A stretch of DNA of 16,666 nucleotides from a virus, in the IMG/VR virus record IMGVR_UViG_3300021431_000601, positions 1 through 16,666 of that record; one strand, written 5' to 3'. Both the position numbers and the translations under genes were made by a program. Each line of letters starts with the position of its first letter. Positions within the stretch are counted from its first letter, which is position 1. Positions 1 through 16,666 of the stretch are shown here, piece by piece. The notes beneath the pieces are model-generated. The model did not search any database and was not told the DNA's origin. It was given only the letters and a program-made list of their open reading frames with translations.

Positions 1-67
1 CGCATACCATTGATATTACTATGCTAGTACTAATGTTTGTGTAATTTGTACTAAAAAATGGTATTTT
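1..67. repeat. Left inverted terminal repeat (67 bp)
   Basis: Bases 1-67 are the exact reverse complement of 16600-16666. Identity breaks at base 68 (g) versus 16599 (t). Internal substructure: ATACCATT (4-11) / AATGGTAT (57-64) inverted pair, GTACTAA direct repeats at 27-33 and 48-54, and TACTA-tgc-TAGTA at 17-29. Confidence 0.97.
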
Positions 68-70
68 GTG

Positions 71-99
71 TTGACTTATTATTAATACTATGAGATAAT
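71..99 (+). promoter_or_regulatory. Left-end early promoter (sigma-A type, extended -10)
   Basis: -35 TTGACT at 71-76, 17-bp spacer, TG at 91-92, -10 GATAAT at 94-99. It lies immediately inside the ITR and upstream of the first + strand ORFs. Confidence 0.6.
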
Positions 100-127
100 A
101 TAATTAAGAAAGAGAGGTTAGATTGTT

Positions 128-274
128 ATGAGATATGTTGTATTAATGAACATGAAGTATTTAAATAGTTTTAGATGTTATGGAGATGCTGTTGATTATA
201 GAGATCATTATCAAAAGAAATATCCAAATAATATTGTAGAGATAATAACATATAATGAATTTAAAGGGAGATAA
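128..274 (+). CDS. Small hypothetical protein (48 aa), not in the supplied ORF track
   Basis: ATG at 128 is preceded by AGAGAGG (111-117). Hand translation gives MRYVVLMNMKYLNSFRCYGDAVDYRDHYQKKYPNNIVEIITYNEFKGR, with stop TAA at 272-274. It is the first ORF after the left promoter. No recognisable family. Confidence 0.3.
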   Translation: MRYVVLMNMKYLNSFRCYGDAVDYRDHYQKKYPNNIVEIITYNEFKGR

Positions 275-278
275 TAAT

Positions 279-482
279 ATGAGTAAAGTTAATATAAGAG
301 CCAAGCAATATTGGAAGTATAAAATTATTGAATATGAATATATAAGTATGAGTCATGGTGATGATGGAGATAAAATAGAAGTATGTAAAACATTACATAA
401 AACTAATAGCAAGTTAATATTCTGGCTAATAAAATTATGTTTAAAATTACAAGGAATTAAATATGAGGTAGTAAATGAATGA
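279..482 (+). CDS. Hypothetical early protein (67 aa)
   Basis: The track ORF is 255..482. ATG at 279 (MSKVNIR...) is preferred because AAGGGAG (264-270) sits 8 nt upstream, whereas ATG 255 has no SD. The stop overlaps the next gene start. Confidence 0.55.
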   Translation: MSKVNIRAKQYWKYKIIEYEYISMSHGDDGDKIEVCKTLHKTNSKLIFWLIKLCLKLQGIKYEVVNE

Positions 483-717
483 TGAAATATTAAAGTATAT
501 ATTAATGATGAAAACATTTAATAGTGAACTTATGGAATTAAATATTAAATACAGTGAACAAATTGAGAAATATAAAGATATTATTCTTGATTTAGAAAAT
601 GAAAGAGATATATTAAAAAGTAAATTATCTGAAACTAAAGCTGATCTACATTATTTATTAGAAAATGGTGAAAGTATTTATATTAGAAATAAATATATTA
701 GAGGTAATAAAGAGTGA
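475..717 (+). CDS. Small helical/coiled-coil early protein (80 aa), ends in ...RGNKE
   Basis: ATG at 475 follows GAGGT (464-468). The sequence is heptad-like and rich in charged residues. It ends in the junction cassette AGAGGTAATAAAGAGTGA (700-717), which overlaps the GTG start of the next gene. Confidence 0.6.
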   Translation: MNDEILKYILMMKTFNSELMELNIKYSEQIEKYKDIILDLENERDILKSKLSETKADLHYLLENGESIYIRNKYIRGNKE

Positions 718-968
718 GATTACAAATACAAAACGATAAAGAATATATAAAAGAATTAGAAAATTATATAGAAATATTAGAACACGAAGAAGATAGATTA
801 AGAGAAAAGTTATTAAACAAAGACAAAGAAATAGAAAGACTAAATAATATCATAAAAGAAGTAAGAGAATATATAGAAAATGGACAGGTTTTTGATATTT
901 CATTAGATAGAGAATTTGCTGTTTTTGATAGAAAAAAACTTTTAGAAATATTAGATAAAGTAGATTAG
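714..968 (+). CDS. Early paralog-family protein (84 aa) with EEDRLREKLLNKDKEIERLNNII module
   Basis: The GTG start overlaps the upstream TGA (GTGA at 714-717). It carries the 71-bp module 786-856, which is identical to 1161-1231. Confidence 0.7.
   Translation: MRLQIQNDKEYIKELENYIEILEHEEDRLREKLLNKDKEIERLNNIIKEVREYIENGQVFDISLDREFAVFDRKKLLEILDKVD
786..856 (+). repeat. 71-bp exact direct repeat, copy 1 (coding)
   Basis: GAAGAAGATAGATTAAGAGAAAAGTTATTAAACAAAGACAAAGAAATAGAAAGACTAAATAATATCATAAA is identical at 786-856 and 1161-1231. A 32-nt core (825-856) recurs at 1200-1231, 1484-1515 (1 mismatch) and 1883-1914 (1 mismatch). Confidence 0.95.
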
Positions 969-977
969 GAGGGTAAT

Positions 978-1337
978 ATGAAAGTAATAGATTTATTAAA
1001 TAAGATAGCAAATGGAGAAGAAGTACCAAAGAAAATAAAATATCATAATAGAATATACATAAAAAGAAGCGATTGCTATAACTATATATTAGAAAATGGT
1101 GGGTTTGATGATGAGTTAAAAGTAATTGTTGGTTGTTTAAATGATGAAGTAGAAATAATAGAAGAAGATAGATTAAGAGAAAAGTTATTAAACAAAGACA
1201 AAGAAATAGAAAGACTAAATAATATCATAAATGAAGCAATAAAATATATAAGAAGTAATGAATGGGGAATTGACTATGAACATAGTAATTGTAGAACTCA
1301 TTTATTAGATATTCTAAAAGGAAGTGATAAAGAGTGA
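978..1337 (+). CDS. Early paralog-family protein (119 aa): unrelated N-terminus + EEDRLREKLLNKDKEIERLNNII + ...ILKGSDKE
   Basis: ATG at 978 follows AGGAGGG (967-973). Contains repeat copy 2. The C-terminal cassette AAAGGAAGTGATAAAGAGTGA (1317-1337) overlaps the next GTG start. Confidence 0.75.
   Translation: MKVIDLLNKIANGEEVPKKIKYHNRIYIKRSDCYNYILENGGFDDELKVIVGCLNDEVEIIEEDRLREKLLNKDKEIERLNNIINEAIKYIRSNEWGIDYEHSNCRTHLLDILKGSDKE
1161..1231 (+). repeat. 71-bp exact direct repeat, copy 2 (coding)
   Basis: Identical to 786-856, and in frame in both host ORFs. Confidence 0.95.
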
Positions 1338-1639
1338 AGTTTGAATACAAAGTTAAATGTAGACATAAATTAGGCTGGAAAGAAATTAAAATTTATGCAG
1401 ATACTGATATTGAGGAGTTTTTTAACAGAAATGGAATTGAATATGTAAGAAACATTACTGACACAATAGAACATAGACAATTAAAAGAAATAGAAAGACT
1501 AAATAACATCATAAACGAATTAGAAAAAACATTATTAGAGTGGCACGAATATTGGGAAGATGATGATAGTTATAGTTGGCAATATAAAAATATTTATGAT
1601 TATTTACAAGAACTAAAAGGAAGTGATAGTAATGAGTGA
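1334..1639 (+). CDS. Early paralog-family protein (101 aa): KEIERLNNIINE core, ...LKGSDSNE tail
   Basis: GTG at 1334 overlaps TGA 1335-1337 and follows AAAGGAAG. Core motif copy at 1484-1515. Confidence 0.7.
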   Translation: MKFEYKVKCRHKLGWKEIKIYADTDIEEFFNRNGIEYVRNITDTIEHRQLKEIERLNNIINELEKTLLEWHEYWEDDDSYSWQYKNIYDYLQELKGSDSNE

Positions 1640-1811
1640 AGAATTATTAAAGTCGTTAGATGAAAAAATACTTGATGAAAAGTTTGAAAAGCTACAAAAA
1701 AATATAGAAAATTATTGTGGAGATTATGGAACGTTAGAAAGTAGATTAGAAGAAACCTTATGGATGATCTTAGATATTCTCAAAGATTTAAAAAAAGGTG
1801 ATAAAGAGTGA
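1632..1811 (+). CDS. Small early protein (59 aa), ...LKKGDKE tail, lacks the KEIERLNNII core
   Basis: The track gives 1623 (GTG). ATG at 1632 (MSEELL...) is preferred: it lies 9 nt downstream of AAAGGAAG (1615-1622) and overlaps the upstream stop (ATGAGTGA). Confidence 0.6.
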   Translation: MSEELLKSLDEKILDEKFEKLQKNIENYCGDYGTLESRLEETLWMILDILKDLKKGDKE

Positions 1812-2032
1812 AAGAAATAGAATTATTAAAAATAATATTCAAAGATAGTCCTGATATTTTAGAACCATTAAATGAAATAGACAAAGAAATAGAAAGATTA
1901 AATAATATCATAAATAAATTATTCGAATATTTAAAAGAAAATAGTAAACAACCTGAATTATTTGAAAGTGATAGATATTACGAAGATATTTTAGATAAAT
2001 TACAAGAGTTGTTAGGAAGTGATAAAGAGTGA
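1808..2032 (+). CDS. Early paralog-family protein (74 aa): DKEIERLNNIINK core, ...LLGSDKE tail
   Basis: GTG at 1808 overlaps TGA 1809-1811 and follows AAGGTGA. Core motif copy at 1883-1914. Confidence 0.7.
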   Translation: MKEIELLKIIFKDSPDILEPLNEIDKEIERLNNIINKLFEYLKENSKQPELFESDRYYEDILDKLQELLGSDKE

Positions 2033-2190
2033 ATAAAATTTACTTATATTTAAGAAATACTGAAAAGAATTTTTCATTCTTCAAATATTTTGATACTGAA
2101 TATGAAAAAGATGAGTTTAAGAGAAAGCTAAAGTTCATTCCTTATCTTATGTTAATTGAGGATTCAACTGATATGATATGGAGTTCTTAA
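2029..2190 (+). CDS. Small hypothetical protein (53 aa), not in the supplied ORF track
   Basis: GTG at 2029 overlaps TGA 2030-2032 in the same GATAAAGAGTGA cassette used by the three preceding junctions. Hand translation gives VNKIYLYLRNTEKNFSFFKYFDTEYEKDEFKRKLKFIPYLMLIEDSTDMIWSS, with stop TAA at 2188-2190. Confidence 0.4.
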   Translation: MNKIYLYLRNTEKNFSFFKYFDTEYEKDEFKRKLKFIPYLMLIEDSTDMIWSS

Positions 2191-2194
2191 TTAA

Positions 2195-2305
2195 CTCACT
2201 ACTTGTTAATAAGTAGTGAGAGTAACAAGTTAACCTCTCGTTACTCTCAGTGCTTATTAGCACTAAAAATAAGGGTGATGACCGACATCAGAACACCTAC
2301 GGGTG
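2195..2305 (+). ncRNA. Structured, relatively GC-rich noncoding element: candidate small RNA (pRNA-like?) or structured 5' leader of the SSB-like gene
   Basis: Five consecutive hairpins. H1: 2195-2204/2211-2220, 10 bp, loop GTTAAT. H2: 2221-2226/2240-2245, extendable to 9 bp in competition with H1, with a 13-nt loop containing GTTAAC and CCTCTC. H3: 2249-2254/2259-2264, loop TATT. H4: 2276-2280/2286-2290. H5: CACC-TACG-GGTG at 2294-2305. I counted 48 G+C in 2191-2310 (40%), visibly above the surrounding sequence. The strand and the boundaries are not established. Confidence 0.4.
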
Positions 2306-2318
2306 AGGAGGAAATTTT

Positions 2319-2774
2319 ATGAATGAAGAAAAAAGAACAGGAGTAAAAAATGCAATAATGGTTACATCAGATATTTTTGGTGAATCAAAAGCTAAAAGAA
2401 TGACATCACTTGATTTAAATGATGAAGAACAAGTTGATATGTTCTTAAATGCTCAAAATGATGCTGATTTTAAGCTAAATGATTGTGCTGGAAAAGTATT
2501 AACTATTATTGGAGCAACTATTGGAGAATATCCAAATGAAACAACTAATGAAGAAACTGGAGAAGTAATTATAAGAAAGAAACATTCACTTTGTTTATTT
2601 GATGAAGATGGAAAGAGTTATGTAACTGGTTCTGGAACTTGTTATTATAGCTTTGCTCAAATAGTAGCACTTAAAGGAATGCCAACAAAGGAATCACCTT
2701 TAAAAATTGAAGTTGTAAAAGTTCCAGCTGAAATTAAAGGACATGAATATTTAAAAGTTAAAATAGCTAAATAA
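2319..2774 (+). CDS. Putative OB-fold single-stranded DNA-binding protein (151 aa); the product assignment is tentative
   Basis: Strong SD GAGGAGG (2305-2311) lies 7 nt before the ATG. The layout (acidic N-terminal part, then KVLTIIGATIGE...ETGEVI...LFDEDGKSYVTGSG...) resembles phage SSBs of Firmicute phages as I remember them. This was not verified by search. The CDS itself is confident; the function is about 0.4. Confidence 0.6.
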   Translation: MNEEKRTGVKNAIMVTSDIFGESKAKRMTSLDLNDEEQVDMFLNAQNDADFKLNDCAGKVLTIIGATIGEYPNETTNEETGEVIIRKKHSLCLFDEDGKSYVTGSGTCYYSFAQIVALKGMPTKESPLKIEVVKVPAEIKGHEYLKVKIAK

Positions 2775-2803
2775 TTGAAAAAATAACCATCTTGTGCTAT
2801 ATA
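2775..2803 (+). promoter_or_regulatory. Internal promoter upstream of the lysis module (extended -10)
   Basis: -35 TTGAAA at 2775-2780, 17-bp spacer, TG at 2795-2796, -10 TATATA at 2798-2803. It is embedded in a long hairpin (2782-2793 / 2813-2824). Confidence 0.5.
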
Positions 2804-2829
2804 TTAGATAGAAAGGTGGTTATTATTTT

Positions 2830-3039
2830 ATGGAAGAATTATTTAAACTTATTGTTGATAATGGATTGGGTATTGGTTCATTTATAGCTCTTTTATATTT
2901 TATATTTACATATGTAAAAGAATTAAATGAAACAATGACAAGAATATCAAACACAATGATCCAGATGCAAATTAATATGGAAAAAATGACAGATAGAATT
3001 GATAAGATAGAAGAAAAGATTAATTTTAAGGAGGTATAA
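2830..3039 (+). CDS. Holin-like protein, BhlA/UviB-type (69 aa)
   Basis: One N-terminal TM segment (GLGIGSFIALLYFIFTYV) is followed by a charged helical tail ending ...DRIDKIEEKINFK. Size and layout match the BhlA/UviB holin-like peptides of Bacillus/Clostridium. It lies upstream of the endolysin. Confidence 0.7.
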   Translation: MEELFKLIVDNGLGIGSFIALLYFIFTYVKELNETMTRISNTMIQMQINMEKMTDRIDKIEEKINFKEV

Positions 3040-3042
3040 TTT

Positions 3043-3246
3043 ATGTTATCAAGAGAAGAGTTAAGATTATTAAATGAAATTTTAGGAGGTTTAGAACTAG
3101 ATGGAGAAAAAGACAAATTAAAAACTAAATTATCATTAATAATTGAACAATTAAACTTAATGGAAAAATCTCAAGAAGAAGTTGCTAAAATACAAGATAA
3201 AATTGTAGCTTTGGATGGTGATAAAGATGAGAAAAAAGAAGATTAA
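3043..3246 (+). CDS. Hypothetical acidic helical protein (67 aa)
   Basis: AAGGAGG (3028-3034) lies 8 nt before ATG 3043. No TM segment and no recognisable family. Confidence 0.65.
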   Translation: MLSREELRLLNEILGGLELDGEKDKLKTKLSLIIEQLNLMEKSQEEVAKIQDKIVALDGDKDEKKED

Positions 3247-3376
3247 AAAAGAAGAAATTAAAGAAGATGTAATTGTTGAAAATGAAGATATTGGAGAAGT
3301 TCTTCCAATAATAGCTGATGAAGATAATCCAGTAAGTGATGGAAAAGAATTTGCTGGAGGTGATGAGGATGAGTAA
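3227..3376 (+). CDS. Possible small overlapping ORF (49 aa, K/E/D-rich), not in the supplied track
   Basis: ATG at 3227 gives MRKKKIKKEEIKEDVIVENEDIGEVLPIIADEDNPVSDGKEFAGGDEDE. It overlaps the 3043 ORF by 20 nt. Its stop (TAA 3374-3376) overlaps the endolysin start (ATGAGTAA), filling an otherwise unexplained 120-nt gap. The SD is weak. Confidence 0.3.
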   Translation: MRKKKIKKEEIKEDVIVENEDIGEVLPIIADEDNPVSDGKEFAGGDEDE

Positions 3377-4097
3377 AACACCACAACAATTTTGTGATAA
3401 AGTATTAGGACATAAATTTGATGAAGATGGTCGTTATGGTTGCCAATGTGTTGATGGATTTAAAACTTGGATAAGAATTGAATTAGGTTTAAATATGGGA
3501 AAAGTTACTTTTTGTTCTCCAACTAATTTAGCAACATCAATTTGGGATAACTTTGAAGAACTAGGACTTGATAAATACTTTGATAAAGTAAGAGCTGATT
3601 CAATGGTTGATGGTGATTGGGCTATATGGGGAATAAAATCAAGAAGTTGTCCATCATCTCATATTGCTATGTTTAGAAAAGATTCTGGAAATAATTTAGG
3701 AATTTTCTTAGGACAAAATCAAAGTAATCATCTAGAATTTACTCAACAAAGAATTTATTATAATGGATTAAGAGGAGGATTAAGACCAAAGATTTATCAT
3801 GAGGAACCAGCACCAACTCCATCAAAAGAGCATCCAATTTATGAAACTTTAGGAGATATGTATGTTAGATGGGATGCATCATATAATGCTGGAATAAAGT
3901 TAGTAAAAGATTTAACTGAGGATGGAAAAAAACATGCAACATCACAAAATCCAAATAGTTATGCTGTTTATAAAAAAGGAACTAGATTCACTTGTTATGA
4001 AACTAAAGACAAAGGATTTGGATTATGGGGAAGAAGTCCATCTGGATGGATTTGTATAAAAGGTAAATCTGGAACAGTTTATTGTAAGGAAGTTTAA
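3369..4097 (+). CDS. Endolysin: N-terminal CHAP domain + C-terminal SH3-like cell-wall-binding domain (242 aa)
   Basis: The CHAP catalytic context is present: GRYGCQCVDGF (Cys) and PSSHIAMF (His). A proline-rich linker (EEPAPTPSKE) follows. The C-terminal region ending ...GLWGRSPSGWICIKG is typical of bacterial SH3 domains. Start moved from 3336 to ATG 3369, which lies 8 nt after GGAGG (3356-3360). Confidence 0.85.
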   Translation: MSKTPQQFCDKVLGHKFDEDGRYGCQCVDGFKTWIRIELGLNMGKVTFCSPTNLATSIWDNFEELGLDKYFDKVRADSMVDGDWAIWGIKSRSCPSSHIAMFRKDSGNNLGIFLGQNQSNHLEFTQQRIYYNGLRGGLRPKIYHEEPAPTPSKEHPIYETLGDMYVRWDASYNAGIKLVKDLTEDGKKHATSQNPNSYAVYKKGTRFTCYETKDKGFGLWGRSPSGWICIKGKSGTVYCKEV

Positions 4098-4717
4098 TGA
4101 GAGCTAATGAACAAAAAATAGCTGCTGATGGATATGAAGTTTGTTTATTTCCATGTGAATGTATGAAATTAAATACTAATAGACCAGAACATGATGTTTA
4201 TGCTTTAGACTTTTTACCAGTAACATCAACTGGAGTTCCAATGACACATATGCCAGTTTATGCTCCATTTACTGGAACAATAGTTTATACTGGAAATGAC
4301 CACAATTGTATTTTACAAAGTAATAGAAAAGTACATACACCAAGTGGATTAAAATATGTTAGAGTTCTAGTTGCTCATAATGACAATCCTCCTCCAGTTG
4401 TAACGACTGAATTTAGACAAGGACAACAATTTTATACTACTGGAAATTATGGATATTCATTTGGAGAACATTTGCATATGGAATATGCTTTAGTTGATAA
4501 TACATCTGATAGATTATGGAATACTGGAGGGATTGGTTTATATAATGGTATTCACATGTGGGATGCTTTATATATAGATGATACATATGTTGTTGCTGGA
4601 GGAAGTTATGATTGGTTAGAATATGGAGAAACACCTCCAATAAAAACATCAAAGAAGAAAAGATTTCCATGGGTATTATATGCTAGGAAGTTTAGAAATA
4701 ATAGAGCAAATGTTTGA
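4097..4717 (+). CDS. M23 (LytM-type) metallopeptidase, 206 aa; second lysin or virion-associated peptidoglycan hydrolase
   Basis: M23-like motifs are present: PVYAPFTGTIVYTG and QGQQFYTTGNYGYSFGEHLHMEY (HxH). An upstream H...D (PEHDVYALDF) is less canonical. The start overlaps the endolysin stop (TAATG). Confidence 0.78.
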   Translation: MRANEQKIAADGYEVCLFPCECMKLNTNRPEHDVYALDFLPVTSTGVPMTHMPVYAPFTGTIVYTGNDHNCILQSNRKVHTPSGLKYVRVLVAHNDNPPPVVTTEFRQGQQFYTTGNYGYSFGEHLHMEYALVDNTSDRLWNTGGIGLYNGIHMWDALYIDDTYVVAGGSYDWLEYGETPPIKTSKKKRFPWVLYARKFRNNRANV

Positions 4718-11877: not shown

Positions 11878-13041
11878 TCATCTCCTTATTTCAAAATCTA
11901 TTGATTGCTTAAATTCAGTTCCACATAAATCAGTAGAATAAAAAATTCTATTTTCTCTAAATGTTTTAAATAAATCAACCAATGTTTTATTTTTTATTAA
12001 TGGATTATAAATATCTTTTTGCCAATATGGACTTGTTTTTATAATATCACTAAATACAATTATATTTCTTTTTAGTTCTCCAGAATATGGATAAATAAAC
12101 CAAATAACATCTTTTGTTTCTTTATCCATTAAATATTCACATAACCATGTAAAAGTTTTATAATGAAAAGCAAATCTATAAAGCATCTTATATTCTTTAT
12201 AGCTTTTAGGTAATTTTGGTTGAGGATCACTTTGCCATTCACCTTTATTTAACATATTAGCATGAGTTCCAAAAACAAATGAAGAATTTCCAGTTGATTT
12301 ACAATGTTCAACAGCAAGTTTCACTTCAATAGGTATTCCATCATCATCTACTTCTCCAGTAGATAACCATAATGTTTTTATCTCCCCTTGTTTTTGTTTG
12401 AATATTATCTCATTTAATCCCCAATCTTGTATATATGGACAAACTCTTGTAATAGTGTTACCTACTAACCAAAGTTTAGTTGTTCCTCTTTTTCTATCAA
12501 CTGTTGAATAGAAGTTAAGAAGTTTATTAGGTTCATCATGTAAATATGTAGTTCTAGACATGAACTCTTCAAATATAATATCAGATACATCTAAATAAGA
12601 ACCTCCAGCATAATTTTGCTCAGTAGATAGTGAAACAGCATAACCAATTTTAGCTCCTCTTTTAGATTTATGAGTTTCTACATCATAATGAGTTAAATAT
12701 ATTTCCTTTCTATATAATGTAACCATATTATATTCACCATCTGTTAGCTCTTCTATATTAACATCACTAAAATATGATTCAATCCAAGCTGAATTAATTT
12801 CTTCCTTAAATCTTCTCATTAGAATAAATCTTTTTCCAGAATCTTGATGCATCTTAATTATATTACCTTTATCATTATAATTATCAACAAATCTATAGGC
12901 ATCATCTAAATATGGAATAATACCTTTTTTATGCTTTACTTGATAGCTTTTTCCATTACTTCTCTCTCCCCATATTAAATTAACATTAGCTCCTAATTTA
13001 TCTATTTCATCTAACGAGTAGTGGATAACTTTTCTTGACAT
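11878..13041 (-). CDS. DNA encapsidation ATPase (phi29 gp16-like, 387 aa)
   Basis: Walker A is GERSNGKSY (compare GARGIGKSY in gp16). FILMRRF corresponds to FIYVRRY. Walker B is SDIIFEEFM (compare TIVFDEFI). AGGTGA SD lies 6 nt upstream. Confidence 0.9.
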   Translation of the reverse strand: MSRKVIHYSLDEIDKLGANVNLIWGERSNGKSYQVKHKKGIIPYLDDAYRFVDNYNDKGNIIKMHQDSGKRFILMRRFKEEINSAWIESYFSDVNIEELTDGEYNMVTLYRKEIYLTHYDVETHKSKRGAKIGYAVSLSTEQNYAGGSYLDVSDIIFEEFMSRTTYLHDEPNKLLNFYSTVDRKRGTTKLWLVGNTITRVCPYIQDWGLNEIIFKQKQGEIKTLWLSTGEVDDDGIPIEVKLAVEHCKSTGNSSFVFGTHANMLNKGEWQSDPQPKLPKSYKEYKMLYRFAFHYKTFTWLCEYLMDKETKDVIWFIYPYSGELKRNIIVFSDIIKTSPYWQKDIYNPLIKNKTLVDLFKTFRENRIFYSTDLCGTEFKQSIDFEIRR

Positions 13042-13606: not shown

Positions 13607-15667
13607 TTATCCCTCCTTAAATCTTGCTCTTGCACTTGAATCATCACTTATTAAATTAGCATAATCTAAGCTCTTACTTAGTTTATATGTATTAGGTAAT
13701 ATACAACATCCACTCCTATCAGTTACTAAATAAGTTAATCCTAAATAATCCATAACTTCAACTGGTGATTGTTCTTCAGTGTACATTACTAAATTTTTAT
13801 TAGTATCTTTATAATTAAATATAAAATCATCTCTAAAATCATCTAAACTCTTTAGAGCTTTTGCTCCAGCTTTAGGAACTCCAGCCACAGTTATATGTAT
13901 TTTATCATCTATTATATAAGCATACTTTTTAGCACCTTGAGTTATAAACTCTTTATAATTACATTCTTTTTCAAATAATCCCATCATGTGTTTATTGCCT
14001 TTAATATCAGATGGAGCATATTTTCTAACATCTAATTTTAATATTTTACATACAAAATTAATTCTATCTTCTACACTTTTATTGTAATCTTCAAATACTT
14101 TTTTATCATATCCATCTACTAATTTACATGAATCAGTATCACAATATACTACATAATCATCATTAGCAATTACTCTTCGAAGTAAATTATCTCTAGCATA
14201 TGCTGTAACCCAAACACCATATGCAAAAGATAAAAATGCTTTTTTCTTTTCACTTCCTAGTTTTTTAATAATTGTATCATTATCAAGTGGAACTTCTTCC
14301 CATGTTCCAGTTGCATCATCATAAATAACATCATCTCTTATATTATTAGTAACACTCATTCCATATATAGAATTATACATTCCTTTTATTCTTCCATATT
14401 CCATCTCTCTTTCTGGAATACCTTTTAACTCAGTTTTACCAACATACTTATCCAGAATAAATTCAATTAATGTTTTAGGTAAATAACTCATACTAGAATA
14501 GTAACATTCTAATATCTCATACTCTAAATCATATGTATCTAAATAAAAGTAAAAATCAATATCGGTTAATGTCATTTCAAATTCAGATGCTGAAATTAAT
14601 CGACCATTATCATATTTTGCTCCTCTTAAATTCCTACATTTACTAGCACTTATAAAATTATTGTAATATTTACATTTAACATTCTTAAATCTAACAACTA
14701 ATAAATAAGCTAATCTTTTTGACATCTCTTCTCTTTTCTTTATCTTACATGGTCTAAACTCACTATTAGGATATTTTTGTGTAACTAATACATAAGGATA
14801 ACTGGATGCAATATCATATGAATCAACATTCTCTAAAACTGAATCAGCATAAATCCAATTAGCATGTGTATATCCTCCTAAAAAAGCATCACAAAGTAGA
14901 TTATAAATATGAGGATTAGTATTAATTGCTTTCTTTACTATTCTCCTATATTTAAAATTAGTTCTTGTTAAGTTCTGGAGTTCTCTTCTAACTTTTCCAG
15001 TATTAGTTGATGGTATATGTTTTACATCTTCATATACTTCTAACTCTTTTAAAATATAATGATATAATACTAAACAATCATATTCACAATATCCAAGCTC
15101 TTTTTCACTCATTGGAGTATTAGGATTTCTTATAAGTGAATAATCTAAATCTCCAACTTTCTTTTCAACTGGTAAACTAAACATTTTAGGTAAATACTTT
15201 AATGCAACATTACTCATCATATAGCTACATTTAAGTATTATGTTATAATCTCTCATTATTGCACTTATAACCTTATGTGATTTACGAGCTGACACCTCAT
15301 CAAAATGAAAGTTACTTTTCAAATATTGAAACTCAAAAGCTAAATTATGAATAAATACATATTTAGTATCACCTATATGATCATCTAGTCTTTTTAAAAA
15401 TAACTTCAACTCATTCCAAGTTCTACCATAATAAACAATATCATTTATACTAAACATCCATATATACATATGACTTCTTTTAATGGCTCTTTGTTTTTCT
15501 TTATCTCCTAATTCATCATATTTAATAGCTGGATAAACTTTTCCATTTAGTATATAATAAGAACTTGTTTCAATATCAAATGTATAAATATTAGTATCAT
15601 AAAATTTTCTTTTTCCTTTGATATTAGGTTCATGACCTACACCATTATATTTATTCCAATAAAGCAC
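13607..15667 (-). CDS. Protein-primed family B DNA polymerase (686 aa)
   Basis: All signature motifs are present: ExoI FDIETS; ExoII HNLAFEF; ExoIII YCEYD; motif A DIASSYP (Dx2SxYP); motif B KGMYNSIYG (Kx3NSxYG); motif C YCDTDS; KxY GAKKYAY. The GTG start immediately follows an in-frame stop. Confidence 0.97.
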   Translation of the reverse strand: MLYWNKYNGVGHEPNIKGKRKFYDTNIYTFDIETSSYYILNGKVYPAIKYDELGDKEKQRAIKRSHMYIWMFSINDIVYYGRTWNELKLFLKRLDDHIGDTKYVFIHNLAFEFQYLKSNFHFDEVSARKSHKVISAIMRDYNIILKCSYMMSNVALKYLPKMFSLPVEKKVGDLDYSLIRNPNTPMSEKELGYCEYDCLVLYHYILKELEVYEDVKHIPSTNTGKVRRELQNLTRTNFKYRRIVKKAINTNPHIYNLLCDAFLGGYTHANWIYADSVLENVDSYDIASSYPYVLVTQKYPNSEFRPCKIKKREEMSKRLAYLLVVRFKNVKCKYYNNFISASKCRNLRGAKYDNGRLISASEFEMTLTDIDFYFYLDTYDLEYEILECYYSSMSYLPKTLIEFILDKYVGKTELKGIPEREMEYGRIKGMYNSIYGMSVTNNIRDDVIYDDATGTWEEVPLDNDTIIKKLGSEKKKAFLSFAYGVWVTAYARDNLLRRVIANDDYVVYCDTDSCKLVDGYDKKVFEDYNKSVEDRINFVCKILKLDVRKYAPSDIKGNKHMMGLFEKECNYKEFITQGAKKYAYIIDDKIHITVAGVPKAGAKALKSLDDFRDDFIFNYKDTNKNLVMYTEEQSPVEVMDYLGLTYLVTDRSGCCILPNTYKLSKSLDYANLISDDSSARARFKEG

Positions 15668-15685
15668 CTAATATCACTAACCTCT

Positions 15686-16363
15686 CTATAATACATATTT
15701 TTCAAACAATGTTTTAGCTGATTCTCTTAAATCCAAATCATTCATAGACAATCCAGCATAAGTTTCAATTCTTTTTATAAAATCATTTTCTGAATCTCCC
15801 TCTTCAATAGCATCCTCAATAACAGCTTGTAATGAACTAGCTCCTATTTTATCAGCTATATTAGAAAAGCTATCTTCTCCAAACATTTCATAAAATTTCT
15901 CAGCATCTTCATAACTCATCTCTTCATCTTCTGTTGATAAAGTTCCTCTTAAACTTTCAATAGTTTGTTCTCTTGTCTTTTTTATTCCTTTCTTAGTTGA
16001 TGTTAAACTATTTAAAAATTGATTAGTTGCTTTATTAACAGCAATCAATTGAGCTTTTGTTGGATTCTTACCTAATTTAATTTTACCTTTTGACCACATT
16101 TTCATTTTATTAGAACTTAATCTATTAGCTAATTTTTTACTAGCCCATGTTCCAGACTTATATCTTCTTTGTAATGAAGATAATCTAGCATTAGCTTTAC
16201 TAACTAGCTTTCTTGTTTCTTTTTCTAAATCAACTTTAGGTTTTCTTCCTCTAACTCTCTTTTTAGCAATACTTCCTTTACCAGTATTAACTATTTTACT
16301 TCCAGTTCCTTTACTTATGTATGAACTTCTTTTTCTTGTTCTTTTGTATTTCTTTCCTTGCAT
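15686..16363 (-). CDS. Putative terminal protein (225 aa)
   Basis: It lies directly upstream of the protein-primed polymerase, as in the phi29 gene 3 - gene 2 order. The N-terminus is extremely basic (KKYKRTRKR...KKRVRGRKPK) and the C-terminal half is acidic. The genome has ITRs. AGGAGAGG SD upstream. No direct sequence identity to phi29 TP that I can recognise. Confidence 0.7.
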   Translation of the reverse strand: MQGKKYKRTRKRSSYISKGTGSKIVNTGKGSIAKKRVRGRKPKVDLEKETRKLVSKANARLSSLQRRYKSGTWASKKLANRLSSNKMKMWSKGKIKLGKNPTKAQLIAVNKATNQFLNSLTSTKKGIKKTREQTIESLRGTLSTEDEEMSYEDAEKFYEMFGEDSFSNIADKIGASSLQAVIEDAIEEGDSENDFIKRIETYAGLSMNDLDLRESAKTLFEKYVL

Positions 16364-16599: not shown

Positions 16600-16666
16600 A
16601 AAATACCATTTTTTAGTACAAATTACACAAACATTAGTACTAGCATAGTAATATCAATGGTATGCG
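16600..16666. repeat. Right inverted terminal repeat (67 bp)
   Basis: Exact reverse complement of 1-67. Confidence 0.97.

What the first reader, a model, noticed from the sequence alone, without database searches (positions are those of the whole stretch)
475..2190. Tandem array of mosaic, paralogous small early genes sharing a KEIERLNNII core and an exact 71-bp duplication
Directly downstream of the left-end promoter lie seven back-to-back ORFs of 53-119 aa with almost no intergenic DNA. Four of them (714..968, 978..1337, 1334..1639, 1808..2032) carry the same in-frame core, (D)KEIERLNNII. The core is encoded by a 32-nt element at 825-856, 1200-1231, 1484-1515 (1 mismatch) and 1883-1914 (1 mismatch). 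Two of these genes share an exact 71-bp stretch (786-856 = 1161-1231, encoding EEDRLREKLLNKDKEIERLNNII), yet their N- and C-terminal flanks are unrelated. That pattern indicates recent gene conversion or module shuffling rather than old divergence. The architecture is a variable N-terminal part, a shared helical core, about 25-35 aa, and then a (L)KGSDKE tail. None of the proteins resembles a phi29 early protein that I recognise (p1, p6, p16.7, p17, p56). A diversifying family with a common helical, possibly oligomerising, core and variable heads, at the very start of the early operon, fits host-takeover, anti-defence or replication-organising factors. The function is entirely open. Roughly 10 percent of a 16.7-kb genome is devoted to this family, which is striking.
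Basis: partly seen in the sequence, partly recalled or inferred. Interest (0 to 1): 0.8.

Follow-up and report, generated by a model that had tools for sequence, protein, structure and literature searches.

The report
Shuffled small-gene cassettes in gut phages
Near the left end of this small phage genome lies a dispensable array of tiny genes, built from interchangeable front and back halves joined at two short conserved DNA "handles"; the same system occurs in many unrelated gut phages, and what the proteins do is still unknown.

Summary
The 32-nt core occurs four times, against 0 expected by chance. The 71-bp duplication is exact, and an 18-nt junction recurs four times.

The window is a complete phi29-like genome (67-bp terminal repeats, 26.9% GC) with no close relative among deposited phages. 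Five of the seven ORFs (714-2032) belong to a large family. A profile search finds about 1,500 clusters at 50% identity. The family has no match in Pfam, PHROGs, NCBIfam, PDB or the searched literature.

The proteins are small, acidic and helical. They are combinatorial mosaics: nearly every recurring N-half is found with several C-halves, and the reverse. The crossover lies in the core, which is conserved even at synonymous sites.

The "KGSDKE" tail is mainly a nucleotide signal. It spells an extended Shine-Dalgarno sequence followed by a GTG start that overlaps the TGA stop of the same gene.

Phages with 97%-identical polymerases carry 4-5, 1 or 0 such genes. The differences are bounded exactly by junction copies.

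The closest analogue is the PeSL cassette system of T4-type phages, but here the handles lie in coding sequence. The biochemical function is unresolved. Inhibition or binding of host factors is my inference only.

The parts
71..99 (+). Promoter-like site TTGACT-17-(TG)GATAAT upstream of the left-end operon (context)
   Evidence: Best-scoring sigma-70-like site in 1-3400, 10 of 12 matches with an upstream TG. This is a consensus match only.
475..717 (+). Conserved 80-aa coiled-coil ORF on the left of the array; its last codons form junction copy 1
   Evidence: Present at 90-96% nt identity in L144 and L145, including L145, which lacks the array.
700..717 (+). Junction copy 1 (AGAGGTAATAAAGAGTGA): the stop of ORF 475 overlaps the GTG start of cassette A
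   Evidence: It is the left boundary of the indel relative to L145 and L144.
714..968 (+). Cassette A, 84 aa, with core at 825-856; the C-half is of the KEVREYI...LLEILDK type; ends without the GSDKE junction and is followed by a canonical AGGAGG-ATG
786..856 (+). Left copy of the exact 71-nt duplication (EEDRLREKLLNKDKEIERLNNII)
978..1337 (+). Cassette B, 119 aa: an N-domain of the separate 'KIANGEE...LNDEVEIIEE' family fused to the core (1200-1231) and to a C-half ending LLDILKGSDKE
   Evidence: AlphaFold2 gives pLDDT 79: a small beta domain followed by helices 65-93 and 103-114.
1161..1231 (+). Right copy of the exact 71-nt duplication
1320..1337 (+). Junction copy 2 (GGAAGTGATAAAGAGTGA)
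1334..1639 (+). Cassette C, 101 aa, with core at 1484-1515; its C-half recurs in L144 (92% nt) and L012 (93% nt) behind different N-halves
1632..1811 (+). Cassette D, 59 aa from ATG 1632 (62 aa from GTG 1623): a diverged member with a degenerate core and the tail ILDILKDLKKGDKE
   Evidence: The choice of start codon is my reading of the SD spacing.
1794..1811 (+). Junction copy 3 (AAAGGTGATAAAGAGTGA)
1808..2032 (+). Cassette E, 74 aa, the minimal member, with core at 1883-1914
   Evidence: AlphaFold2 gives pLDDT 85 and pTM 0.66, with helices 2-10, 15-45 (containing the core) and 55-70, and a low-confidence GSDKE end. Its N-half is found with 35 different C-half clusters.
2015..2032 (+). Junction copy 4 (GGAAGTGATAAAGAGTGA), the right boundary of the variable array
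2029..2190 (+). Conserved 53-aa ORF on the right of the array
   Evidence: Present in L144, L145 and L146 directly after whatever cassettes are there.

Best explanation
Positions 714-2032 are a hyperplastic, dispensable array of five translationally coupled mini-gene cassettes. They sit in the left-end operon of a complete phi29-like podovirus.

Each cassette encodes a small (59-119 aa), acidic, soluble helical protein from a very large, unannotated, metagenome-only family. A member has four parts:
- a variable N-half;
- a conserved stretch of about 30-55 nt encoding (D)KEIERLNNII(NELEK), which forms the start of a long central helix;
- a variable C-half, consisting of the rest of that helix, a loop or inserted domain, and a C-terminal helix (..LDKLQEL);
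- a 3' junction.

The junction CTA AAA GGA AGT GAT AAA GAG TGA is primarily a nucleotide signal. AAAGGAAGTGAT matches the extended Firmicute Shine-Dalgarno AAAGGAGGTGAT at 11 of 12 positions. A GTG start follows about 9 nt after the GGAAG core and overlaps the TGA stop. Whatever cassette lands downstream is therefore translated.

The two conserved stretches serve, at least in effect, as homologous-recombination handles. Crossovers at junctions add, delete or replace whole cassettes. Crossovers in the core re-pair N-halves with C-halves, within a genome and between unrelated co-infecting phages.

Shown here: the anatomy, the family, the reassortment, the indel boundaries and the codon-level conservation.

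Inferred: the proteins act as modular binders or inhibitors of host components (anti-defence or host takeover), with rapid turnover driven by an arms race.
For: Anatomy and repeats.

Genome: complete and linear, with a 67-bp inverted terminal repeat. The gene set is phi29-like: DNA polymerase, SSB, connector and the rest. There is no near match in the INPHARED phage collection.

Family size and lack of annotation:
- 71 IMG/VR contigs and 10 MAG contigs carry the exact peptide.
- A profile search gives 1,513 clusters at E <= 1e-3.
- Pfam, PHROGs, NCBIfam and PDB give nothing, and a text search of the paper library for the motif strings found none.

Dispensability and turnover: relatives with 97%, 97% and 90% polymerase identity carry 1, 0 and 2 core genes, against 4-5 here. 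The indel is bounded exactly by the junction copies at 700-717 and 2015-2032.

Crossover in the core:
- The L144 chimera.
- 20 of 20 gene pairs that share at least 45 nt on one side of the core lose identity at or within 30 nt of it.
- 27 of 29 multi-member N clusters join two or more C clusters, and 41 of 43 multi-member C clusters join two or more N clusters.
- blastn hits from dozens of loci pile up only on the four cores.

Nucleotide-level conservation of the core, with position-specific codons:
- the Ile at motif position 9 is ATC in 56% of copies, against 8% background use;
- the Leu is CTA in 46%, against 14%;
- the Ile at motif position 3 is ATA in 99%, against 55%.

Junction:
- GGA in 67 of 69 (background 49%);
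- every Ser is AGT (background 37%);
- GAG in 65 of 69 (background 18%);
- TGA in 67 of 69, with a GTGA overlap in 64 of 69;
- 63 of 69 are followed by an ORF that starts at that GTG;
- GTG starts 63% of family genes, against 12% of long ORFs.

The junction 12-mer occurs 79 times in 652 kb of motif-bearing loci, against 2 times in 885 kb of polymerase relatives. Small ORFs without a core in the same arrays also end in GSDKE.

Fold and chemistry: a helical hairpin with a low-confidence (probably disordered) tail. Median pI is 4.9, and there is no membrane segment.

Context in larger phages: the early DNA-metabolism region, with methyltransferases, HNH endonucleases, ParB-like proteins and nucleases.
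Against: - No experiment and no significant homology bear on what the proteins do. The best structural matches are non-significant: a T4 Vs.4/Acb2-type hairpin at E = 1.6, and a crAssphage Acb2/Tad1 hairpin at E = 1.4.
- Almost all comparative data come from metagenome assemblies, where short shared repeats could in principle create chimeras. Three things mitigate this. The core (30-55 nt) is shorter than typical final k-mers and reads. The L144 chimera has private substitutions inside its core. Identical mosaic genes recur in independent samples: L018/L027, L021/L028 and L044/L059.
- The reassortment counts are enriched by the way the proteins were retrieved, using two window proteins and the exact motif.
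- Conservation of the core could be a consequence of protein function, with recombination only a by-product.
- The junction repeats are short (11-18 nt) for classical homologous recombination.
- Transcription, translation and coupling have not been measured.
Confidence: 0.65

Rival explanations
1. An ordinary protein family with a functionally essential motif. On this view KEIERLNNII is conserved because it is an oligomerisation helix (a = Ile, d = Leu heptads, like a GCN4-type dimer) or the contact surface for one conserved host protein. Mosaic boundaries fall there only because it is the sole stretch with enough identity for recombination. No selection for exchangeability is involved.
For: - The core lies in a confidently predicted long helix.
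- Profile hits to PDB are all coiled coils, namely GCN4 chimeras and coronavirus HR2.
- The peptide is nearly invariant in hundreds of proteins.
- Some proteins carry two or three cores, as repeat proteins do.
Against: - Long-standing protein-level constraint should leave synonymous sites at the background codon usage. Instead codon choice is position-specific and far from background: ATC at one Ile but ATA at the two others, and CTA and GAC over-used.
- In diverged cores the substitutions are not concentrated at third positions.
- The junction shows the same nucleotide-level behaviour even though the GSDKE end is modelled with low confidence and so is probably disordered.
- This rival is compatible with the shuffling described. 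It differs only on cause.
Confidence: 0.25
2. The core is a cis-acting nucleic-acid signal embedded in coding sequence. It could be an internal sense promoter (AAGACA-17-AATAAT), an antisense extended -10 (TATGATATTAT on the minus strand), or the target of a homing endonuclease whose cuts drive gene conversion. That would explain both the synonymous conservation and the clustering of breakpoints.
For: - Three of four window cores score 9-10 of 12 as sigma-70-like sites.
- GAC is preferred over GAT at the Asp codon that would supply the -35 GACA.
- HNH endonuclease genes are the commonest annotated neighbours of arrays in larger phages, matching 8 of 140 neighbouring proteins.
Against: - Promoter-like sites are no more frequent than in shuffled sequence in this 27%-GC DNA: 26 found against 27.1 expected.
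- The would-be -35 codons (K-D) are present in only about half of the copies, and window copy 3 lacks them.
- The ATC codon that supplies the antisense TG is present in only 56% of copies.
- None of the ten largest window ORFs matches an HNH endonuclease family in PHROGs, and HNH genes are common in phage early regions anyway.
- No RNA family matches.
Confidence: 0.07
3. Replication-organising or membrane-anchoring proteins analogous to phi29 p1 and p16.7, duplicated in this lineage.
For: Position at the left end beside the SSB gene, and coiled-coil character.
Against: - Absent from a relative with a 97%-identical polymerase.
- No hydrophobic segment in any of 117 members.
- Present in many non-phi29-like contigs of 30-131 kb.
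- No sequence match to phi29 families, although the phi29 SSB Pfam model does detect the neighbouring gene.
Confidence: 0.03

Closest known systems
PeSL (promoter-early stem-loop) mobile regulatory cassettes in the hyperplastic regions of T4-type phages (Arbiol et al. 2010, PMC2839356; Comeau et al. 2014, PMC4122927)
   Same: A short conserved regulatory motif is repeated at the boundaries of small, non-essential ORFan genes. Insertions, deletions and replacements between very close relatives are bounded by the motif. The motif also supplies expression signals for whatever gene follows.
   Different: - PeSLs are intergenic, consisting of a sigma-70 promoter plus a terminator hairpin. Here the boundary motif is an SD plus an overlapping GTG/TGA lying inside the coding sequence of the upstream gene.
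- There is a second handle in the middle of the genes, so half-genes are shuffled as well as whole genes.
- The hosts are low-GC Gram-positive-type bacteria (inferred).
- The same handles are shared by phages of unrelated architecture.
- Mini-circles have not been examined.
Conserved linker or boundary sequences at gene junctions proposed to guide module exchange in lambdoid and dairy phages (my own knowledge of the mosaicism literature; not checked here)
   Same: Short homologies at module borders, with unrelated sequence on either side.
   Different: Those linkers are sporadic and usually specific to a lineage. Here one 24-nt junction and one 30-55-nt core recur tens of times per 100 kb and across morphotypes. 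Rare codons are kept.
Recombination handles of polymorphic toxin systems, such as the VENN motif before CdiA-CT and the PxxxxDPxGL motif of Rhs, with downstream orphan cassettes (my own knowledge)
   Same: A conserved peptide, and the DNA that encodes it, separates variable modules and lets tandem orphan modules swap in by homologous recombination.
   Different: - There is no toxin/immunity pair, no secretion signal and no large delivery domain.
- Both sides of the handle vary.
- The proteins are 60-140 aa and phage-encoded.
Small phage anti-defence hairpin proteins (Acb2/Vs.4 and Tad-type nucleotide sponges)
   Same: Small, helical, early and accessory. They are the top, though non-significant, fold matches.
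   Different: E-values of 1.4-1.6 and 12-23% identity. Ligand-binding residues and the oligomeric state were not assessed. A helical hairpin is a generic fold.
phi29 early proteins p1, p6, p16.7, p17, p56
   Same: Small products of a terminal operon in a protein-primed podovirus.
   Different: No sequence similarity. No membrane anchor. Not conserved even among near-identical relatives.

Membership tests
KEIERLNNII-core cassette family (defined here; unannotated) | In-frame core (D)KEIERLNNII, encoded by AAAGAAATAGAAAGAYTAAATAATATCATA | tested here: met
   Four window ORFs carry it with 0-1 nt mismatch. A fifth has a degenerate version. The same peptide is present in 81 external loci.
KEIERLNNII-core cassette family (defined here; unannotated) | C-terminal helix ..L(D/Q/K)(E/K)L.. 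followed by a G-x-D-K-E stop, with a GTGA overlap into the next ORF | tested here: met
   Cassettes B, D and E meet it exactly. Cassette C has the variant GSDSNE with an ATG start downstream. Cassette A ends LLEILDKVD and lacks the junction.
KEIERLNNII-core cassette family (defined here; unannotated) | Small, acidic, soluble helical protein | tested here: met
   Window members have pI 4.5-5.3. The family median pI is 4.9, and no member has a hydrophobic stretch. AlphaFold2 predicts helices.
PeSL-type mobile regulatory cassettes (T4-type hyperplastic regions) | A conserved short motif repeated at the borders of small non-essential ORFs, which bounds the indels between close relatives | tested here: met
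   Junction copies at 700-717 and 2015-2032 bound the 1.3-kb difference from L145 and L144.
PeSL-type mobile regulatory cassettes (T4-type hyperplastic regions) | The motif is a strong sigma-70 early promoter followed by a terminator stem-loop in intergenic DNA | tested here: not met
   The junction is coding sequence, made of an SD and a start/stop overlap, with no stem-loop. The only terminator-like site lies at 2217-2249, outside the array, and promoter-like sites are not enriched.
PeSL-type mobile regulatory cassettes (T4-type hyperplastic regions) | Excised mini-circles formed by recombination between neighbouring motifs | not testable with these tools
   Needs PCR or sequencing reads from infected cells or virions.
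phi29 early proteins (p1, p6, p16.7, p17, p56) | Sequence or profile similarity to the phi29 protein families | tested here: not met
   No Pfam or PHROG hit above threshold for any of the seven ORFs. The neighbouring gene does match Phi29_Phage_SSB.
phi29 early proteins (p1, p6, p16.7, p17, p56) | A membrane segment (p1, p16.7) and conservation as a core replication accessory | tested here: not met
   No hydrophobic stretch. The array is absent from L145.
Acb2/Vs.4/Tad-type anti-CBASS/Thoeris hairpin sponges | Significant fold or sequence similarity | tested here: inconclusive
   Top hits, but at E = 1.6 (PDB 7uq2, TM 0.63) and E = 1.4 (BFVD). There is no sequence hit.
Acb2/Vs.4/Tad-type anti-CBASS/Thoeris hairpin sponges | Oligomeric assembly that forms nucleotide-binding pockets | not testable with these tools
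   No multimer prediction or ligand assay was available.
Diversity-generating retroelement or shufflon-type programmed variation | An associated reverse transcriptase with template/variable repeats, or a site-specific recombinase | tested here: not met
   Nine of the ten largest window ORFs match lysis, structural, packaging or DNA-polymerase families. The tenth (15686-16363, the putative terminal protein) matches nothing. No reverse transcriptase or recombinase appears.
Polymorphic toxin / orphan-cassette systems (CdiA-CT, Rhs) | A toxin domain with a cognate immunity gene downstream of the conserved handle | tested here: not met
   No toxin or immunity family hits. The modules are 15-80 aa, and both sides of the handle vary.

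The most novel reading that the evidence does not exclude
The junction and the intragenic core may be maintained as portable recombination handles of a plug-and-play cassette system shared by unrelated phages of the ruminant gut. The junction would guarantee translation of any incoming cassette. The core would let N- and C-terminal half-genes be re-paired. Together they would turn a pool of a few hundred half-genes into a combinatorial library of small acidic two-module proteins, most plausibly inhibitors of host defence or other host factors. That would be a recombination-based counterpart of diversity-generating systems, operating on coding sequence and across phage lineages.
Probability: 0.35. 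Interest if true: 0.85.

Novelty: new variant of a known kind. Interest (0 to 1): 0.64.

Why it matters
Hypervariable small early genes are where phages keep much of their unexplored host-interaction and anti-defence repertoire. How such genes are gained and remixed is understood mechanistically in only a few systems, such as the T4 PeSLs.

Here a simple sequence-defined rule delineates more than a thousand uncharacterised proteins. The rule has two parts: a 24-nt junction made of an SD and an overlapping start/stop, and a 30-55-nt in-frame core. The same rule explains their mosaic structure and gives precise breakpoints.

This makes several questions directly testable:
- whether conserved coding "handles" raise recombination locally;
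- whether half-proteins function as independent modules;
- which host targets drive the turnover.

It also provides a practical search key for finding accessory-gene islands in phages of uncultured low-GC gut bacteria. Finally, it is a caution for metagenome assembly and gene-family clustering of mosaic proteins.

Tried and rejected
- Near-identity DNA search of the whole window against 50,697 deposited phages: no match. tblastn of ORF 978 and ORF 1334 against the same set: no match.
- Pfam, PHROGs and NCBIfam on the window ORFs: only sub-threshold coiled-coil noise. PHROGs on 47 relatives of ORF 1808 and Pfam on 65 relatives of ORF 978 gave the same.
- Profile search of PDB sequences: only coiled coils, such as GCN4 chimeras and coronavirus HR2.
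- Foldseek of both AlphaFold2 models against PDB, and of the 74-aa model against BFVD: nothing at E <= 0.001.
- Rfam on the whole window and on 2100-2400: no family.
- Full-text literature search for the motif strings: no paper. A search for rumen phi29-like phages found nothing describing this family.
- Cluster look-up of the few NCBI-sourced relatives: no names or accessions. The encoding contig of P0079 showed only a generic phage early region.
- TGA read as a sense codon, which would fuse the cassettes: rejected. The frame runs into TAG within a few codons after 1337 (my reading), and the large genes are intact under code 11.
- Internal-promoter reading of the core: kept only as a low-probability rival, because such sites are not enriched over shuffles.
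- Left ends of most polymerase relatives (L072-L143): these could not be compared, because the 10-kb flank limit cuts them off. Only three close relatives (L144-L146) and three distant ones (L012, L064, L148) could be compared.


Full report
**1. What is in the window**

The window is a complete linear genome. Its ends form a perfect 67-bp inverted terminal repeat, and its GC content is 26.9%. The gene set is that of a protein-primed phi29-like podovirus:
- a phi29-type SSB at 2319-2774;
- two lysins, a major head protein, upper and lower collar proteins and tail proteins;
- an encapsidation ATPase at 11878-13041 and a DNA polymerase at 13607-15667 on the minus strand.

It has no near match among 50,697 deposited phage records. 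Its polymerase is at most 37% identical to anything there.

**2. Check of the observation**

No shuffle gave any match. The segment 786-856 is identical to 1161-1231 (71 nt), flanked by mismatches at 785/1160 and 857/1232. The seven ORFs are contiguous or overlapping. An 18-nt junction, GGAAGTGATAAAGAGTGA and variants, recurs at 700, 1320, 1794 and 2015, against 0.01 expected.

A protein alignment shows that ORF 1623/1632-1811 is a fifth, diverged member. ORFs 475-717 and 2029-2190 are the conserved genes that flank the variable part.

**3. The family is large, unannotated and not confined to this phage lineage**

Back-translating KEIERLNNII into a fully degenerate DNA pattern found 71 IMG/VR contigs and 10 MAG contigs. 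My rough estimate is that chance would give only one or two hits in IMG/VR. The MAG record titles name dairy-cattle duodenum, goat ileum and other gut assemblies. The bins are labelled Bacilli, Firmicutes, Lachnospiraceae and Clostridia, with a few implausible labels that probably reflect mis-binned phage contigs.

Many of the viral contigs are 30-47 kb and one is 131 kb, so they are not phi29-like. The encoded proteins are 57-195 aa. They have unrelated N-termini, the core (usually extended to DKEIERLNNIINELEK), a variable middle, and an ..L(K/Q)ELKGSDKE end.

Further searches gave these results:
- A word-indexed search with the 74-aa ORF found 92 relatives, none with a Pfam domain or a meaningful name.
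- A profile search of 1.84 billion cluster representatives found 1,513 at E <= 1e-3 and 64 at E <= 1e-10. Some of the weakest are likely generic coiled coils.
- Pfam, PHROGs, NCBIfam, PDB sequences, tblastn of two members against the deposited-phage collection and the searchable literature all gave nothing.

**4. The array is dispensable and turns over quickly**

Three IMG/VR contigs share this phage's SSB at 93-99% identity and its polymerase at 90-97%. Between the same conserved flanking genes they carry:
- L144: one core gene plus an unrelated 87-aa ORF;
- L145: no cassette at all;
- L146: two different core genes.

The window has five.

The L145 sequence runs from the end of the ORF 475 homologue through a single junction straight into the ORF 2029 homologue. 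The 1.3-kb difference is therefore bounded exactly by the junction copies at 700-717 and 2015-2032.

More distant relatives also keep one or two core genes between the contig end and the SSB gene. These are L064/L148 (SSB 53% identical) and L012 (34%).

In 72 polymerase relatives the core profile hits only L076, and the junction 12-mer occurs twice in 885 kb. In motif-bearing loci it occurs 79 times in 652 kb. Many of those 72 loci lack the distal 0.1-2.4 kb of their contig, so this comparison is only partial.

**5. The core is a crossover point**

- The single core gene of L144 matches ORF 1808 almost base for base up to the core and matches ORF 1334 after it. It has private substitutions inside the core, which argues against an assembly chimera.
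- Among 116 distinct core genes, 20 pairs share at least 45 nt of high identity on one side of the core. In all 20 the identity ends at the core or within 30 nt beyond it.
- Among 258 distinct single-core proteins there are 170 N-half clusters and 168 C-half clusters. Of the 29 N clusters with several members, 27 join two or more C clusters. Of the 43 such C clusters, 41 join two or more N clusters. The N-half of ORF 1808 is seen with 35 C-half clusters, and the C-half of ORF 978 with 12 N-half clusters. The way the proteins were retrieved inflates these counts somewhat.
- blastn of the left 2.3 kb of the window against all fetched loci gives pile-ups of 50-70-nt hits at 80-98% identity on the four cores. 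It finds almost nothing elsewhere except in the close relatives.
- Identical mosaic genes recur in independent samples: L018/L027, L021/L028 and L044/L059.

**6. Both conserved elements are conserved as DNA**

The search allowed every synonymous codon, yet codon choice in 82 distinct copies is position-specific and far from the usage of long ORFs in the same loci:
- the three Ile codons are ATA 99%, ATC 56% and ATA 93%, against a background of ATA 55% and ATC 8%;
- Leu is CTA in 46%, against 14%;
- the preceding Asp is GAC in 70% of Asp codons, against 18%.

In diverged copies the substitutions are spread over all three codon positions.

The junction behaves the same way. In 69 distinct [KLQRI]GxDKE ends:
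- Gly is GGA in 67 (background 49%);
- every Ser is AGT (background 37%);
- Glu is GAG in 65 (background 18%);
- the stop is TGA in 67;
- 64 have the GTGA overlap;
- 63 are followed by an ORF of at least 35 aa that starts at that GTG.

GTG starts 63% of family genes but only 12% of long ORFs.

The junction reads CTA AAA GGA AGT GAT AAA GAG TGA. It contains AAAGGAAGTGAT, which matches at 11 of 12 positions the sequence AAAGGAGGTGAT, the complement of the 3' end of Firmicute 16S rRNA. That 16S sequence is established knowledge, and the match is my own reading. The GTG lies about 9 nt after the GGAAG core.

The GSDKE end is the lowest-confidence part of the AlphaFold2 model. Small ORFs in the same arrays that lack the core also end in GSDKE with the same overlap. 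The "tail" is therefore chiefly a translation-initiation and coupling signal for the next cassette, and the border at which cassettes are exchanged.

**7. The proteins**

With a 47-sequence alignment, AlphaFold2 models the 74-aa member at pLDDT 85 and pTM 0.66. The model has a short N-helix, a 31-residue helix that begins with the core, a loop, and a C-terminal helix.

The 119-aa member has a small beta-rich N-domain followed by the same helix-loop-helix (pLDDT 79). That N-domain belongs to a separate, very large unannotated family, MKVIDLLNKIANGEEVPKKIKY...LNDEVEIIEE, with 2,009 hits.

Neither model has a significant structural neighbour. The top hits are Acb2/Vs.4-type hairpins at E = 1.4-1.6, which I treat as a lead only.

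Members are acidic (median pI 4.9, net charge -6) and have no hydrophobic segment. The heptad pattern of the core, Ile at a and Leu at d, is that of a dimeric coiled coil. This is my reading and is untested.

In the larger phages the arrays lie in the early DNA-metabolism region. Their neighbours are methyltransferases, HNH endonucleases, ParB-like proteins, nucleases and regulators.

**8. Interpretation**

The best-supported account is a hyperplastic array of translationally coupled mini-gene cassettes. Two conserved stretches, the junction and the core, act as recombination handles, at least in effect. Junction crossovers change cassette number and content. Core crossovers re-pair half-genes.

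The closest described system is the PeSL "mobile regulatory cassette" of T4-type phages. There, repeated promoter-terminator motifs bound the indels in hyperplastic regions and provide expression signals. This case fails the PeSL definition on the nature of the motif, which is an SD/start/stop in coding sequence rather than a promoter plus hairpin. It also adds an intragenic handle, so I file it as a new variant of that kind rather than as a member.

What the proteins do is not shown. They are dispensable, turn over fast, sit in an early position, are small and acidic, and have a two-module build. From these features I infer modular binders or inhibitors of host factors, with low confidence.

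The main rival is that the core is conserved for protein function and that recombination there is incidental. That rival is compatible with the mosaic data. It does not by itself explain the position-specific synonymous conservation, or the parallel behaviour of the junction with its low-confidence, probably disordered, tail.

**9. Caveats**

- Nearly all the comparative evidence comes from metagenome assemblies.
- Environment and host rest on a handful of record titles.
- The reassortment statistics are seeded by window proteins.
- No transcription, translation or recombination data exist.

Noticed in passing
window 2186-2320 (+), hairpin arms 2204-2229 / 2237-2262: The 128-nt non-coding gap between ORF 2029 and the SSB gene folds very stably as RNA (-44.5 kcal/mol, z = -6.7). 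It is 98% identical in L146, where the flanking genes are only about 83-93% identical. No Rfam family matches. It could be a structured RNA, a terminator or a regulatory element. No phi29-type packaging RNA has been located in this genome.
   Followed up: partly
window 1-67 and 16600-16666: A perfect 67-bp inverted terminal repeat, so the window is a complete linear genome. This is far longer than the 6-bp repeat of phi29.
   Followed up: yes
window 978-1165 (N-half of ORF 978): The N-domain MKVIDLLNKIANGEEVPKKIKY...LNDEVEIIEE belongs to a separate, very large unannotated family (2,009 hits at E <= 1e-3). That family is itself built as conserved blocks around a hypervariable middle. It occurs both with and without the KEIERLNNII core.
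   Followed up: partly
P0093, P0114, P0125, P0094-P0099 (proteins): Some family proteins carry two or three cores or half-cores. Some are read-through fusions of two whole cassettes (...LQELKGSDKG-VISEL...), as expected if junction stops are occasionally lost.
   Followed up: no
window 820-848, 1195-1223, 1878-1906 (+), and the reverse complement of the cores: The core with its preceding Lys-Asp codons scores as a weak sigma-70-like site (A/TAGACA-17-AATAAT). Its reverse complement reads TATGATATTAT, which resembles an extended -10. Such sites are not enriched over shuffles in this AT-rich DNA.
   Followed up: partly
window 15686-16363 (-): The 225-aa ORF next to the DNA polymerase, in the position of a terminal protein, has no PHROG match.
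   Followed up: no
window 3336-4097 and 4097-4717 (+): Two adjacent endolysin-like genes follow small membrane-protein-like ORFs at 2830-3246. The host therefore has a cell wall, which argues against a wall-less Mollicute host despite the very low GC content.
   Followed up: no
L150 and L155 (MAG contigs, both 40,887 nt): Contigs of identical length, both carrying the motif, are binned in a Methanobrevibacter MAG and in a Clostridia MAG from goat ileum. This is probably one phage genome mis-binned into two MAGs.
   Followed up: no
window 1811-1840 (start of ORF 1808): Right after the junction, the gene begins AAAGAAATAGAATTATTAAAA (KEIELLK). This repeats the 5' half of the core and may be the scar of an earlier junction-to-core recombination.
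   Followed up: no
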